Below, piece after piece: positions 1-1,816 of a DNA stretch of 1,816 bases. The notes under the pieces are model-generated. The model was not told the DNA's origin. It saw nothing but the letters and a program-made list of their open reading frames with translations, and did not search any database. Position numbers and translations under genes: made by a program. The DNA comes from Escherichia coli. GTDB taxonomy: Bacteria > Pseudomonadota > Gammaproteobacteria > Enterobacterales > Enterobacteriaceae. The stretch lies in NCBI RefSeq assembly GCF_003334815.1, contig NZ_QOWO01000092.1; one strand, given 5' to 3'. How positions within the stretch are numbered: position 1 is the first letter of the stretch; each line of letters opens with the position of its first letter.

Positions 1-140
1 TATGGTCTGGCAGGGCTGGGGATGGGTAAGGTGAAATCTATCAATCCGTACCGGCTTACGCCGGGCTTCGGCGGTTTCACACCTGTGCTACATGTAACCA
101 CCGTATGCCGCCTTACATGCGCTGACGCGCATTATTTGCC

Positions 141-169
141 TTGTTCCGTCTGAAAGTAATCACTATGAT
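141..169 (+). promoter_or_regulatory. Putative sigma70 promoter of the TA operon: -35 TTGTTC (141-146), 17-bp spacer, -10 TATGAT (164-169)
   Basis: Hexamers read directly from the sequence. The -10 matches TATAAT at 5 of 6 positions, the -35 matches TTGACA at 4 of 6, and the spacing is 17 bp. It sits 27 bp upstream of the antitoxin start. Not experimentally supported; an alternative -35 (TTGCCT, 136-141) is also possible. Confidence 0.3.
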
Positions 170-182
170 TAAATATGATTAA
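164..182 (+). repeat. Tandem direct repeat TATGATTAA-a-TATGATTAA (candidate RHH antitoxin operator)
   Basis: Two exact 9-bp copies at 164-172 and 174-182, offset by 10 bp (one helical turn). The first copy coincides with the predicted -10. RHH antitoxins typically autoregulate by binding direct or inverted repeats that overlap their own promoter. The repeat is seen directly; the operator role is inferred. Confidence 0.5.
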
Positions 183-195
183 CAACTAATCGGAT

Positions 196-480
196 ATGCA
201 AATGAAAAACAATACCGCACAGGCAACAAAAGTAATTACCGCGCATGTGCCATTACCTATGGCTGATAAAGTCGACCAGATGGCCGCCAGGCTGGAACGC
301 TCCCGGGGCTGGGTTATCAAACAGGCGCTTTCTGCATGGCTTGCCCAGGAGGAGGAGCGTAATCGCCTGACGCTGGAAGCCCTGGACGATGTGACATCCG
401 GACAGGTTATCGACCATCAGGCTGTACAGGCCTGGGCGGACAGCCTCAGTACTGACAATCCGTTACCGGTGCCACGCTGA
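196..480 (+). CDS. parD: Type II antitoxin, ribbon-helix-helix (CopG/ParD-like) family
   Basis: 94-aa ORF starting ATG 196 (alternative in-frame ATG at 202). The N-terminus has an RHH-like layout: a short beta-strand (KVITAHVPLPM), then helices with a G-x turn (ADKVDQMAARLERSRGWVIKQALSAWL), resembling the IKQ(Y)AL motif region of RK2 ParD as recalled. The TGA stop (478-480) overlaps the ATG of the downstream ParE-like toxin at 480-482, the classic antitoxin-first coupled TA arrangement. Size and acidic C-terminal tail fit a toxin-binding domain. The symbol is a family-level assignment, not an ortholog call. The Shine-Dalgarno is weak, so the start codon is uncertain. Confidence 0.75.
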   Translation: MQMKNNTAQATKVITAHVPLPMADKVDQMAARLERSRGWVIKQALSAWLAQEEERNRLTLEALDDVTSGQVIDHQAVQAWADSLSTDNPLPVPR

Positions 481-755
481 TGGAACTGAAGTGGACCAGT
501 AAGGCGCTTTCTGATTTGGCGCGGTTATATGATTTTCTGGTGCTGGCCAGTAAACCTGCTGCCGCCAGAACGGTACAGTCCCTGACACAGGCACCGGTCA
601 TTCTGTTAACTCATCCACGTATGGGAGAACAGTTGTTTCAGTTTGAACCCAGGGAGGTCAGACGGATTTTTGCTGGCGAGTACGAAATCCGTTACGAACT
701 TAATGACCAGACTATTTATGTATTGCGCCTGTGGCACACACGAGAAAACAGGTAG
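480..755 (+). CDS. parE: Type II toxin, RelE/ParE superfamily (ParE-like)
   Basis: 91-aa ORF. The C-terminal segment (QTIYVLRLWHTRENR) fits the ParE-type hydrophobic-x-hydrophobic-R-hydrophobic-x-H-x-R pattern, and the size (~90 aa) is typical. The start ATG shares one nucleotide with the antitoxin stop (TGATG at 478-482), implying translational coupling. GC content matches the upstream antitoxin. The symbol is a family-level assignment. Confidence 0.8.
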   Translation: MELKWTSKALSDLARLYDFLVLASKPAAARTVQSLTQAPVILLTHPRMGEQLFQFEPREVRRIFAGEYEIRYELNDQTIYVLRLWHTRENR

Positions 756-783
756 ATTGTGTGTGGGGACAACTTAACATAGC

Positions 784-845
784 CTGCAGATATTAATTCT
801 GGAACATTATTATCACGCCAGATATTTTGCATTCCATTAAATAAT
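784..845 (+). promoter_or_regulatory. Tentative promoter region for the 861..1139 ORF (weak hexamers: TATTAT 808-813, AATAAT 840-845; 8-bp direct repeat CAGATATT at 786-793 and 819-826)
   Basis: The 105-bp gap after the parE stop implies an independent promoter. There are AT-rich -10-like hexamers but no convincing -35, and a CAGATATT direct repeat whose copies are 33 bp apart. Speculative. Confidence 0.15.
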
Positions 846-850
846 CTTGT

Positions 851-855
851 AGGAG
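851..855 (+). promoter_or_regulatory. Shine-Dalgarno sequence (AGGAG) for the 861..1139 ORF
   Basis: AGGAG lies 5 nt upstream of the ATG at 861 and is a perfect core match to the anti-SD complement. Confidence 0.55.
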
Positions 856-860
856 ATAAA

Positions 861-1139
861 ATGAATTACGATGAAATAACGAAAATTACCGCTGAACGTA
901 TTAGCGACTACATGACTGAAGCAGTTAATACAGACTCTATTGCCGTTGCGGAAATGTTTCATAACGCTGCATGGGGAGTGCGAACATTGTGGTTTGAACT
1001 CGTCACAAAAATAGATATGGATATGCATAAAAAGAACGGGTATGCGAGTTATGATCTTAGAAGGAAAATCGAAATGCAGCATGAAGAGTTTCAGAAAATG
1101 ACAGAGCGCGAGCAAGTGCCTTTATTGAAATCGCCATAA
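861..1139 (+). CDS. Hypothetical small protein (92 aa), no family recognised
   Basis: ATG at 861 is preceded by a canonical Shine-Dalgarno AGGAG (851-855) with a 5-nt spacer. The ORF ends in three tandem in-frame stops, TAA TAA TAG (1137-1145). The translation has balanced, mildly acidic composition and looks protein-like, unlike the antisense shadow ORF. It is AT-richer (~44% GC in block 901-1000) than the TA operon. I recognise no homology from memory. Confidence 0.55.
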
Positions 1140-1147
1140 TAATAGAA

Positions 1148-1178
1148 ACAGTACAAGTACATTGCTGTATTGTGTTTT
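1148..1178 (+). terminator. Weak candidate intrinsic terminator downstream of the 861..1139 ORF
   Basis: ACAGTAC (1148-1154) can pair with GTATTGT (1167-1173) as a 7-bp stem with one G-U pair, followed by G then TTTT (1175-1178). The stem is AT-rich and the loop is long (12 nt), so predicted stability is low. Confidence 0.15.
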
Positions 1179-1241
1179 CCTTGAATATTGAATCGCGGTG
1201 CCCATGTACTACGATTCCTTTCGTGTCATTTATCATTGCAC

Positions 1242-1280
1242 ACTTTCCCTGACTGAGCGTAAAACACTGACTACTTTCCC
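1242..1280. repeat. Short rearranged direct repeats: ACTTTCCC (1242-1249 and 1273-1280) and CTGACT (1249-1254 and 1267-1272)
   Basis: Exact 8-bp and 6-bp repeats read directly from the sequence, in the 194-bp convergent intergenic region between the 861..1139 (+) and 1603..1334 (-) ORFs. Function unknown. Confidence 0.3.
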
Positions 1281-1333
1281 CTCAAACTCTTGGACGGAGA
1301 ATGCAAAATTGGTCTGTTCCAGCATAGAATATG

Positions 1334-1603
1334 TTACTTTTTCATGACCGAACCAGAAATATTGCGCGTCAATAAGAGACATTGTGTAAACTCAGTCCTT
1401 TTATCTGGCAGGTTAACCCCTATCAATCTTAGGATGAAACCACGCCATCCTCTGTTTGCCTGGTTATTAATTTCATAAAGACGATTGTTTTCCTCTCGTA
1501 GTTTTGTCCACTCTAAACAAAGTGTTATATCATCCAGTTCTGTGATGTGTTTCACTTTTCCATTGACAGTTACAGTGTTTATTCCATTTCCTGTGATCAT
1601 CAT
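1334..1603 (-). CDS. Hypothetical protein (89 aa), minus strand, coupled to an upstream ORF
   Basis: ORF starting ATGATG (1603..1598), with AAGG 6 nt upstream as a weak Shine-Dalgarno, and stop TAA at 1336..1334. The first ATG overlaps the TGA stop of the upstream minus-strand frame (ATGA, 1603..1600). The N-terminal half (MMITGNGINTVTVNGKVKHITELDDITL...) looks protein-like and the region LREENNRLYEINNQ looks helical. The competing + strand ORF 1290..1478 starts with TTG and looks less protein-like. Very AT-rich, and no family recognised. Confidence 0.4.
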   Translation of the reverse strand: MMITGNGINTVTVNGKVKHITELDDITLCLEWTKLREENNRLYEINNQANRGWRGFILRLIGVNLPDKRTEFTQCLLLTRNISGSVMKK

Positions 1604-1816
1604 CTTATGCCTTTTTTATCTTCATTTGGGACCGTGCTTTTCTTCGGAGTATCACTATTCGTTAACTGCTGTTTATCAATAAAATTCCTGATGTTATCAA
1701 GTGCTTCCTTTGTTTTTAGAATGTTATACAGAAATACAAGTATACAATCAGGAGAATAGGTAAAATCCATAATACTATAGCTAAAAAAATATATACGGGG
1801 ATCAGGCGTCTGTATG
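1600..1816 (-). CDS. 3' portion of a minus-strand ORF that extends beyond the window; alternatively a 56-aa ORF from ATG 1770
   Basis: The minus-strand frame is open for 72 codons from the window edge (1816) to TGA at 1602..1600. That is unlikely by chance in ~30% GC DNA (order 0.5% under a simple composition model I estimated by hand). The C-terminal sequence (…ILKTKEALDNIRNFIDKQQLTNSDTPKKSTVPNEDKKGIR) looks protein-like. The in-window ATG at 1770 has no Shine-Dalgarno, so the true start is probably upstream of the window. Confidence 0.3.
   Translation of the reverse strand, partial: IQTPDPRIYFFSYSIMDFTYSPDCILVFLYNILKTKEALDNIRNFIDKQQLTNSDTPKKSTVPNEDKKGIR

What the first reader, a model, noticed from the sequence alone, without database searches (positions are those of the whole stretch)
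756..1816. Abrupt compositional break just downstream of the TA operon suggests a junction with horizontally acquired AT-rich DNA
Hand-counted 100-bp blocks give ~61% GC (301-400) and ~53% (501-600) in the TA operon, against ~44% (901-1000), ~35% (1501-1600) and ~29% (1701-1800) downstream. The change occurs within ~100 bp after the parE stop (755). Type II TA modules often sit at the edges of genomic islands, integrons and prophage remnants. AT-rich acquired DNA in enterobacteria is typically silenced by H-NS and often carries accessory or defence functions. The ORFs in this segment are therefore candidates for accessory or defence genes rather than core genes.
Basis: partly seen in the sequence, partly recalled or inferred. 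Interest (0 to 1): 0.45.

Follow-up and report, generated by a model that had tools for sequence, protein, structure and literature searches.

The report
Ordinary GC mosaic in IncI1 plasmid
The drop in GC content is real, but it lies inside a block of plasmid genes that thousands of plasmids inherit together, so it is normal patchwork composition of a conjugative IncI1 plasmid and not the edge of a newly acquired island or defence locus.

Summary
The GC drop is confirmed: 51% for window 1-755 against 37% for 756-1816, and 0 of 500 shuffles reach it. It begins inside parE, with the best change-point at 684 (support 596-793).

The window is 100% identical to the backbone of ~90-kb IncI1 plasmids of E. 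coli and Salmonella, just downstream of repA/ori.

The GC step is not a junction. A 300-bp probe spanning it is intact in 2,212 of 2,796 matching PLSDB plasmids. IncF pJJ1886_5 aligns in one piece from window -116 to 1131, at ~98% identity on both sides of the step.

The real synteny breaks are at window ~129, ~1131-1156 and ~1332. The AT-rich tract is therefore two unrelated modules placed tail to tail:
- ORF92 (861-1139), which travels with the RHH-ParE pair.
- The distal genes of the fopA (yafB) operon: ORF89 (1334-1603) and yafA. In this window yafA is a pseudogene because of a rare 223-bp deletion.

No tRNA gene or convincing flanking repeats were found, the nearest integrase gene is ~7 kb away, and no defence family matches. 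The ORFs have no known function. H-NS binding is untested. The finding is ordinary and of low interest.

The parts
1..129 (+). End of the rep/ori module (57% GC). It includes the tail of a RepA4 pseudogene remnant (to ~34) and the left arm of the hairpin ATGCGCTGACGCGCAT (117-132, terminator-like). Homology with the other IncI1 cassette types (L007 R64-like, L008 pESBL-EA11) ends at ~128-129.
130..1331 (.). Exchangeable cassette slot of I-complex plasmids. In this window it holds RHH-ParE, ORF92 and a spacer (44.6% GC overall). R64-like plasmids carry a non-orthologous yacA/yacB + 3'-5' exonuclease + hypothetical cassette here (49.7% GC). pESBL-EA11 has almost nothing in the slot.
196..480 (+). 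Ribbon-helix-helix (CopG-type) antitoxin, 94 aa, 55.8% GC. A promoter-like site lies at 150-179.
   Evidence: Pfam RHH_1 E=2e-10; annotation; promoter scan
480..755 (+). ParE-family toxin, 91 aa, 48.9% GC. Its start overlaps the antitoxin stop codon.
   Evidence: Pfam ParE_toxin E=3.8e-17
596..793 (.). Support interval of the GC change-point (best position after base 684). It lies inside the co-inherited ParE-ORF92 block.
756..860 (+). parE-ORF92 spacer (33% GC). It has no terminator-like structure (fold z = -0.01). AGGAG at 851-855 lies 5 nt upstream of the ORF92 ATG.
861..1139 (+). ORF92, an intact member of a conserved 93-aa Enterobacterales plasmid protein family (39.4% GC). The predicted fold is a three-helix bundle and the function is unknown. 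It travels with the TA pair in IncF, IncK and IncI plasmids and survives where the TA pair is truncated. PGAP annotates it as a partial pseudogene.
1148..1173 (+). AU-rich hairpin followed by GUUUUCC, a possible weak terminator for the TA-ORF92 transcript. IncF homology ends within or next to it (window 1131-1156).
1140..1333 (.). Convergent intergenic spacer (40% GC). The part 1157-1331 was seen in the fetched relatives only in this IncI1 sublineage and in the IncK2/Z plasmid p69.
1334..1603 (-). ORF89 (WP_000627829.1; PGAP start at 1600), the last gene of the fopA-yafA-ORF89 string of I-complex plasmids (37.5% GC). Predicted beta-hairpin plus long helix. Its C-terminal ~22 aa depart from the family consensus. 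I-complex backbone homology begins at 1332, just after its stop codon.
1600..1816 (-). 3' part of yafA. The intact gene encodes 164 aa with two predicted TM helices. Here it is a pseudogene: 223 bp are missing between window 1724 and 1725 (= L002 3514-3736), which removes codons ~50-124 and shifts the frame. The gene runs off the end of the window.

Best explanation
The window is the backbone of an IncI1 conjugative plasmid immediately downstream of repA/ori. The GC drop reflects ordinary gene-to-gene compositional mosaicism of that plasmid.

The AT-rich tract is not one acquired unit. It is two independent modules lying tail to tail:
(a) ORF92, a small conserved three-helix-bundle gene. It is inherited with the RHH-ParE toxin-antitoxin pair as one block in IncF, IncK and IncI plasmids, and may be co-transcribed with it because no terminator lies between them.
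(b) The distal end of the I-complex fopA(yafB)-yafA-ORF89 gene string, transcribed towards it.

The exchange points that actually shuffle this region are the hairpin at the end of the ori module (window ~129), the end of ORF92 (~1131-1156), and the stop codon of ORF89 (~1332). Between ~129 and ~1332, I-complex plasmids carry alternative, non-orthologous TA cassettes. These were presumably swapped by homologous recombination in the conserved flanks and then eroded by deletions.

Shown: plasmid identity, the breakpoints, co-inheritance across the GC step, conservation of the ORF families, and the pseudogenisation of yafA. Inferred: co-transcription, the recombination mechanism, and any function of the ORFs.
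For: - Identity: 100% match to ~90-kb plasmids that carry IncI1-type nikAB, tra/trb, pil and shufflon genes.
- Co-inheritance across the step: the probe 606-905 is >=80% intact in 2,212 of 2,796 matching plasmids. A single HSP runs from window -116 to 1131 in IncF pJJ1886_5, with ~98% identity on both sides.
- Real breaks: the probe 1000-1299 is intact in only 359 of 2,194 matches, and most others end at window 1131-1156. The probe 1182-1481 is intact in 368 of 1,201, and most others start at window 1332. Nucleotide alignments place the junctions at ~128/129 and ~1332.
- Alternative cassettes at the same slot: the toxins share only 25% identity and the antitoxins are unrelated.
- In R64-like plasmids the cassette is 50-56% GC, and the AT-rich part starts only at the spacer before ORF88-yafA. 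The two AT-rich pieces are therefore independent.
- ORF89-yafA-fopA is essentially whole in 998 of 1,526 matching plasmids, and 766 of the 1,526 match at >=99% identity. fopA = yafB lies between yafA and yagA (PMC7491321).
- Core IncI1 genes have similar GC.
- No tRNA gene, no convincing flanking repeats, and no defence-family hits.
Against: - The three ORFs rank 3rd, 4th and 9th lowest in GC among 102 plasmid genes, and the tract is the most AT-rich kb-scale stretch of the plasmid. A foreign ancestry older than the IncF/IncI/IncK radiation is therefore not excluded.
- ORF89 and yafA are missing or truncated in about a third of fopA-bearing plasmids, so they are not strictly core.
- Co-transcription of ORF92 with parE rests only on the absence of a predicted terminator.
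- The plasmid counts come from a redundant database of related plasmids and are not independent events.
Confidence: 0.85

Rival explanations
1. One reading: a single AT-rich block (756 to the window end and beyond) was acquired horizontally next to the TA operon, so the GC step marks its insertion junction, and the block carries accessory or defence genes silenced by H-NS.
For: The GC drop is real and highly significant. The ORFs lie in the lowest tenth of the plasmid's genes by GC. The region is variable among I-complex plasmids.
Against: Homology runs unbroken across 756 in 2,212 plasmids. The tract splits into two modules with different distributions. No tRNA gene was found, the nearest integrase gene is ~7 kb away, and there are no convincing flanking repeats. 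No PADLOC, PHROG, NCBIfam or Pfam hits were found for the three ORFs. The H-NS high-affinity motif is not enriched (3 matches against 2.8 expected).
Confidence: 0.04
2. Fossil junction: the step records an ancient fusion of a GC-richer RHH-ParE pair with AT-richer small-gene DNA. The fusion predates the spread of the block through IncF, IncK and IncI plasmids, so it no longer appears as a synteny break.
For: GC and GC3 differ between RHH (55.8/58.9%) and ORF92 (39.4/40.9%). Divergent ORF92 homologs occur without this TA pair, or next to Phd-ParE pairs of other families. ORF92 and this TA pair have therefore not always been linked.
Against: The GC decline is gradual and begins within parE, not at the gene boundary. 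No extant relative that separates the two at ~756 was found. The IS10-end remnant at window ~771-779 in L009 is an insertion with a 9-bp duplication, not a junction.
Confidence: 0.3
3. The low GC is functionally maintained. Possible reasons are keeping these genes under H-NS/StpA repression to lower plasmid cost, or the amino-acid composition of the proteins (for example the membrane protein YafA).
For: yafA has a very low GC2 (27.9%), consistent with a protein rich in hydrophobic residues and lysine and with two TM helices. AT-rich DNA at or below 40% GC is the known preference of H-NS (general knowledge; PMC12826799).
Against: GC3 is also low (36-41%), so amino-acid composition alone does not explain it. 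There are no H-NS binding data for this tract, and the motif is not enriched. This plasmid has psiB and moderate overall GC (50.1%), not the AT-rich, hns-encoding type.
Confidence: 0.15
4. Artefact: the window is a chimeric or mis-assembled contig that joins unrelated DNA at ~756.
For: None for the step. The 223-bp deletion at 1724|1725 was seen as a contiguous match in only one RefSeq record among the 30 best hits (NZ_JBSQGZ010000003.1), so that particular feature could be an assembly error or a very recent event.
Against: The window matches dozens of independently sequenced complete plasmids at 100% identity over 1-1724 and 1725-1816.
Confidence: 0.01

Closest known systems
IncI1 (I-complex) plasmid backbone between repZ/repA-ori and fopA(yafB)-yagA-colicin, as in R64, ColIb-P9/pCol1B9 and pESBL-EA11
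   Same: Same gene order and 94-100% nucleotide identity outside the cassette slot. The same ORF89-yafA-fopA string is present. fopA is the FinO-domain RNA-binding protein that targets the Inc antisense RNA (PMC7491321).
   Different: This sublineage carries an RHH-ParE + ORF92 cassette, where R64-like plasmids carry yacA/yacB + exonuclease + a hypothetical gene and pESBL-EA11 carries nothing. This copy also has a 223-bp deletion that inactivates yafA.
RHH-ParE + ORF93 block downstream of the FII-type replicon in IncF and IncK plasmids (e.g. pJJ1886_5, S. sonnei p69; the same TA pair at 97.7% identity on a 222-kb S. flexneri plasmid)
   Same: 92-98% identical over window ~-116 to 1131-1156, including the same GC step. 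ORF92 is intact in these plasmids.
   Different: Downstream of ORF92 the IncF plasmids continue into unrelated DNA. Many IncF copies retain only a 3' fragment of parE (65 or 240 bp) but keep ORF92.
Genomic islands or xenogeneic AT-rich DNA silenced by H-NS
   Same: Lower GC than the surrounding DNA, small genes of unknown function, and variable presence of some parts.
   Different: No boundary coincides with the GC change. No tRNA gene or convincing flanking repeats were found, and the nearest integrase gene is ~7 kb away. The tract is not a single unit, it lies on a plasmid whose core genes show the same GC range, and H-NS binding is untested.

Membership tests
Horizontally acquired genomic island | Composition deviates from the surrounding replicon | tested here: met
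   37.8% against a plasmid mean of 50.1%; lowest of all equal-sized windows; change-point reached by 0 of 500 shuffles.
Horizontally acquired genomic island | The compositional boundary coincides with a synteny or homology break among relatives | tested here: not met
   The probe across 756 is intact in 2,212 of 2,796 plasmids. One HSP runs across it in IncF pJJ1886_5. The breaks are instead at ~129, ~1131-1156 and ~1332.
Horizontally acquired genomic island | Flanking tRNA gene, integrase or direct repeats | tested here: not met
   No tRNA in 15.8 kb. The nearest integrase gene is ~7 kb away. Only short two-copy repeats were found, consistent with chance.
Horizontally acquired genomic island | Present or absent as a single unit | tested here: not met
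   ORF92 is distributed with the TA pair in IncF, IncK and IncI plasmids. ORF89-yafA is distributed with fopA in I-complex plasmids only.
IncI1 / I-complex conjugative plasmid backbone | Near-identical sequence in plasmids carrying IncI1-type relaxase NikB/NikA, tra/trb, thin-pilus pil genes and the shufflon, with RepA next to the locus | tested here: met
   100% identity to NZ_AP029608.1 and many others; annotation.
Type II toxin-antitoxin, ParE toxin with RHH antitoxin | Adjacent small genes, antitoxin first, with family domains | tested here: met
   RHH_1 E=2e-10 and ParE_toxin E=3.8e-17. The genes overlap at position 480.
Type II toxin-antitoxin, ParE toxin with RHH antitoxin | Toxicity and neutralisation, or plasmid stabilisation | not testable with these tools
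   Requires experiments.
Anti-phage defence system | Proteins match known defence families | tested here: not met
   PADLOC gave 0 hits for all six proteins at E<=0.1. The three small ORFs have no Pfam, PHROG or NCBIfam match.
H-NS-silenced xenogeneic DNA | AT-rich tract relative to the host (~51% GC for E. coli, general knowledge) | tested here: met
   37-39% GC.
H-NS-silenced xenogeneic DNA | H-NS occupancy and derepression in an hns mutant | not testable with these tools
   No ChIP data for this tract were found in the library. The high-affinity motif is not enriched (3 matches against 2.8 expected), which is a weak test.
fopA (yafB) operon of I-complex plasmids | ORF89 and yafA co-oriented directly downstream of fopA, with conserved synteny | tested here: met
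   The yafA stop and ORF89 start overlap. The 1.4-kb string is >=80% covered in 998 of 1,526 plasmids.
fopA (yafB) operon of I-complex plasmids | Co-transcription | not tested
   Needs RNA-seq or TSS data.

The most novel reading that the evidence does not exclude
ORF92 is a 93-aa protein with a confidently predicted three-helix bundle and an invariant NAAW...LW motif. By the 300-bp probe that covers only its first 45 nt, it is present on more than 2,000 sequenced enterobacterial plasmids. It is retained intact even where the neighbouring ParE pair has decayed, and it recurs next to unrelated Phd-ParE pairs. It could be an uncharacterised functional partner of ParE-type modules, such as a modulator or third component, or a plasmid-establishment or anti-defence factor, rather than a passive passenger. 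PGAP currently annotates it as a pseudogene fragment.
Probability: 0.15. Interest if true: 0.4.

Novelty: already known. Interest (0 to 1): 0.12.

Why it matters
This mainly serves as a caution. On mosaic plasmids a sharp GC change does not mark a recombination junction. Here the true exchange points lie elsewhere and show no compositional signal. The locus is a well-sequenced IncI1 backbone region. The only residual value is a set of widespread, conserved but uncharacterised small plasmid proteins next to the replicon (ORF92, ORF89, YafA), and a clear example of alternative TA cassettes occupying one slot.

Tried and rejected
- Phage origin: no match in 50,697 phage records.
- Rfam at E<=1: no RNA family in the window.
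- tRNA scan: none found.
- Direct and inverted repeats: only short two-copy matches. One 15-nt inverted repeat (window 123-137 / 1357-1371) lies near both cassette junctions, but its left arm is absent from R64-like plasmids that share the right junction, so I treat it as chance.
- ORF89 structure: moderate confidence only (pLDDT 69.6), so I did not pursue it by fold search.
- NCBIfam, PHROGs, PADLOC and Pfam on the three small ORFs: nothing.
- ORF92 as an obligate third TA component: rejected, because its homologs also occur with no TA nearby.
- H-NS literature for IncI1 or pCol1B9: nothing usable.
- H-NS motif scan: at the chance level.

Full report
**Observation.** GC is 51.4% for window 1-755 and 37.1% for 756-1816. 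A likelihood change-point on G+C versus A+T falls after base 684. Positions 596-793 lie within 2 bits of the maximum, and none of 500 shuffles reaches the statistic. The shift is therefore real and non-random. It begins in the 3' half of parE (51.4% in 480-617, then 46.4% in 618-755), not abruptly after the stop codon.

**Where the window comes from.** The window is 100% identical to ~90-kb plasmids of E. coli, Salmonella and E. albertii, and has no match among phage records. Annotated sister records show a classic IncI1 plasmid, with IncI1-type NikA/NikB, Tra/Trb, thin-pilus pil genes, the shufflon PilV adhesin, colicin Ia, psiB and ardA. The local gene order is:
- repA and the ori/RepA4 remnant
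- RHH antitoxin (196-480) and ParE toxin (480-755); Pfam RHH_1 2e-10 and ParE_toxin 3.8e-17
- ORF92 (861-1139, + strand)
- a convergent spacer
- ORF89 (1334-1603, - strand)
- yafA (- strand)
- the ProQ/FinO gene, then yagA and colicin Ia

The ProQ/FinO gene is fopA (formerly yafB). [quoted passage not shown]

**Context of the AT-rich tract.** On NZ_AP029608.1 (88,911 bp, 50.1% GC) the tract spans L002 ~2389-3956 (38.5%) and ends where fopA (50.4%) begins. It is the most AT-rich stretch of its size on the plasmid, since only 0.07% of equal-sized windows are as low. However, the plasmid has about 15 low-GC tracts of at least 600 bp, and a step of this size or larger occurs at 2.9% of positions. 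At gene level, yafA (37.2%), ORF89 (37.5%) and ORF92 (39.4%) rank 3rd, 4th and 9th lowest of 102 genes. Undisputed backbone genes are comparable: excA 39.2%, pilJ 38.0%, pilU 41.9%, nikA 42.3% and parA 42.8%. Low GC does not separate backbone from cargo on this replicon.

**Is the GC step a junction?** It is not. Whole-segment searches showed that thousands of IncF-type plasmids share the TA genes together with the next ~380-400 bp. In IncF pJJ1886_5 one alignment runs from window -116 to 1131. Identity is 98.2% (RHH), 98.2% (ParE), 98.1% (spacer) and 96.1% (ORF92), so divergence is about equal on both sides of the step. Three 300-bp probes against PLSDB quantify this:

| Probe (window) | Spans | Matching plasmids | >=80% intact | Where the others end or begin |
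|---|---|---|---|---|
| 606-905 | the GC step at 756 | 2,796 | 2,212 | - |
| 1000-1299 | the ORF92 stop at 1139 | 2,194 | 359 | most end at window 1131-1156 |
| 1182-1481 | position 1332 | 1,201 | 368 | most begin at window 1332 |

Pairwise mapping against representative plasmids and nucleotide alignments place the I-complex junctions in two spots. The left one is at window ~128/129, inside the hairpin ATGCGCTGACGCGCAT that ends the ori module (a terminator-like site). The right one is at ~1332, immediately after the ORF89 stop codon.

Between these points I-complex plasmids carry alternative contents:
- The present RHH-ParE + ORF92 cassette.
- A yacA/yacB + 3'-5' exonuclease + hypothetical cassette in R64-like plasmids. 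Its toxin is 25% identical to the ParE here, and the antitoxins are unrelated.
- Almost nothing in pESBL-EA11.

In the R64-like variant the cassette is 50-56% GC, and the AT-rich DNA starts only at the spacer before ORF88-yafA. The window's AT-rich tract is therefore a juxtaposition of two independent AT-rich modules: cassette-borne ORF92, and the backbone ORF89-yafA end of the fopA string.

The ORF89-yafA-fopA string is covered >=80% in 998 of 1,526 matching PLSDB plasmids. Of the 1,526, 766 match at >=99% identity and 92% are conjugative. The remaining plasmids show nested truncations from the ORF89 side. No tRNA gene and no convincing flanking repeats were found, and the nearest integrase gene is ~7 kb away.

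**The ORFs.**
- **ORF92** is intact. The sister versions are 93 aa, and PGAP's "partial pseudogene" label appears mistaken.
  - It belongs to a length-conserved family down to ~60% identity in Salmonella, Citrobacter, Klebsiella and Dickeya, with 18 invariant positions.
  - Divergent homologs sit in arrays of small plasmid genes. Some lie downstream of Phd-ParE pairs of other families (L018, L019), one lies next to a Phd-like pair (L012), and others have no TA nearby and sit beside SprT-like and TopB genes (L013-L017). It is therefore an independent gene and not an obligate TA component.
  - No terminator is predicted between parE and ORF92. A weak hairpin followed by a U-run lies downstream at 1148-1173.
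- **ORF89** also has a conserved family.
  - The predicted structure is a beta-hairpin plus long helix, at moderate confidence (pLDDT 69.6).
  - Its last ~22 residues depart from the family consensus.
- **YafA** has two predicted TM helices. In this window it is inactivated by a 223-bp deletion between 1724 and 1725.
  - Among the best 30 E. coli records, only NZ_JBSQGZ010000003.1 shows this deletion as a contiguous match.
- None of the three ORFs matches PADLOC, PHROGs, NCBIfam or Pfam.

**H-NS.** No H-NS occupancy data for IncI1 or pCol1B9 were found in the searchable literature. The high-affinity motif is at the chance level. Silencing is plausible from base composition alone but remains untested.

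**Verdict.** The region is a mosaic with an exchangeable TA cassette and dispensable small genes. However, the GC step lies inside a block co-inherited by thousands of plasmids, the AT-rich tract is not a single acquired unit, nothing points to defence, and the locus is a well-known IncI1 backbone. This is ordinary biology and of low interest. The only open thread is the unknown function of the widespread ORF92, ORF89 and YafA proteins.

Noticed in passing
window 1724|1725 (= L002 3514-3736 missing): A 223-bp deletion with no obvious flanking repeat removes codons ~50-124 of yafA and shifts the frame. Among the 30 best E. coli records only NZ_JBSQGZ010000003.1 shows it as a contiguous match, while two plasmids from the same strain series (mip270_05, mip270_22) are undeleted. 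It is either a recent event or an assembly error.
   Followed up: partly
L009 2361-2420 (corresponds to window ~771-779): The S. sonnei IncK2/Z plasmid p69 carries a 50-bp perfect palindrome, CTGATGAATCCCCTAATGATTTTTATCAAAATCATTAGGGGATTCATCAG, flanked by a 9-bp duplication AACTTAACA in the parE-ORF92 spacer. From memory it resembles IS10/Tn10 terminal repeats, that is, a minimal IS-end remnant. This was not checked against an IS database.
   Followed up: partly
window 861-1139: RefSeq/PGAP annotates only 861-1064 as an 'incomplete, missing C-terminus' pseudogene. The ORF is in fact full length and differs from the conserved 93-aa family only by loss of the last residue. The PLSDB gene tables often list no gene here at all.
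   Followed up: yes
window 1334-1402 (- strand): The C-terminal ~22 residues of the I-complex ORF89 (RTEFTQCLLLTRNISGSVMKK) differ from the consensus of the wider family (..FIKGINAKxESIYPE). A weak resemblance in another reading frame suggests an old frameshift. This tail is modelled with low confidence.
   Followed up: partly
window 123-137 and 1357-1371: A 15-nt inverted repeat with one mismatch (TGACGCGCATTATTT / AAATATTGCGCGTCA) lies within ~30 bp of both cassette junctions. About 0.2 such pairs are expected by chance in 3.2 kb (my estimate). The left arm is absent from R64-like plasmids, so it is probably coincidence.
   Followed up: partly
L005 3436-3500 and L006 1449-1689: Many IncF plasmids keep only a 3' fragment of parE (65 bp in pAPEC-O1-ColBM, 240 bp in pKC90-S) but retain an intact ORF92 homolog. 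The TA pair decays while the downstream gene is kept.
   Followed up: partly
L007 3837-3923: The spacer of the R64-like plasmid contains an ~87-bp fragment that is 83% identical to an internal part of yafA (L002 3706-3800). This looks like a small duplicated relic next to the cassette junction.
   Followed up: no
L018 2098-3282, L019 1422-2606: In Salmonella contigs an ORF92 homolog follows a Phd/YefM-ParE pair and a 121-aa ORF, and it faces a second, convergent ParD-ParE pair. ORF92-family genes therefore recur beside ParE modules with different antitoxins.
   Followed up: partly
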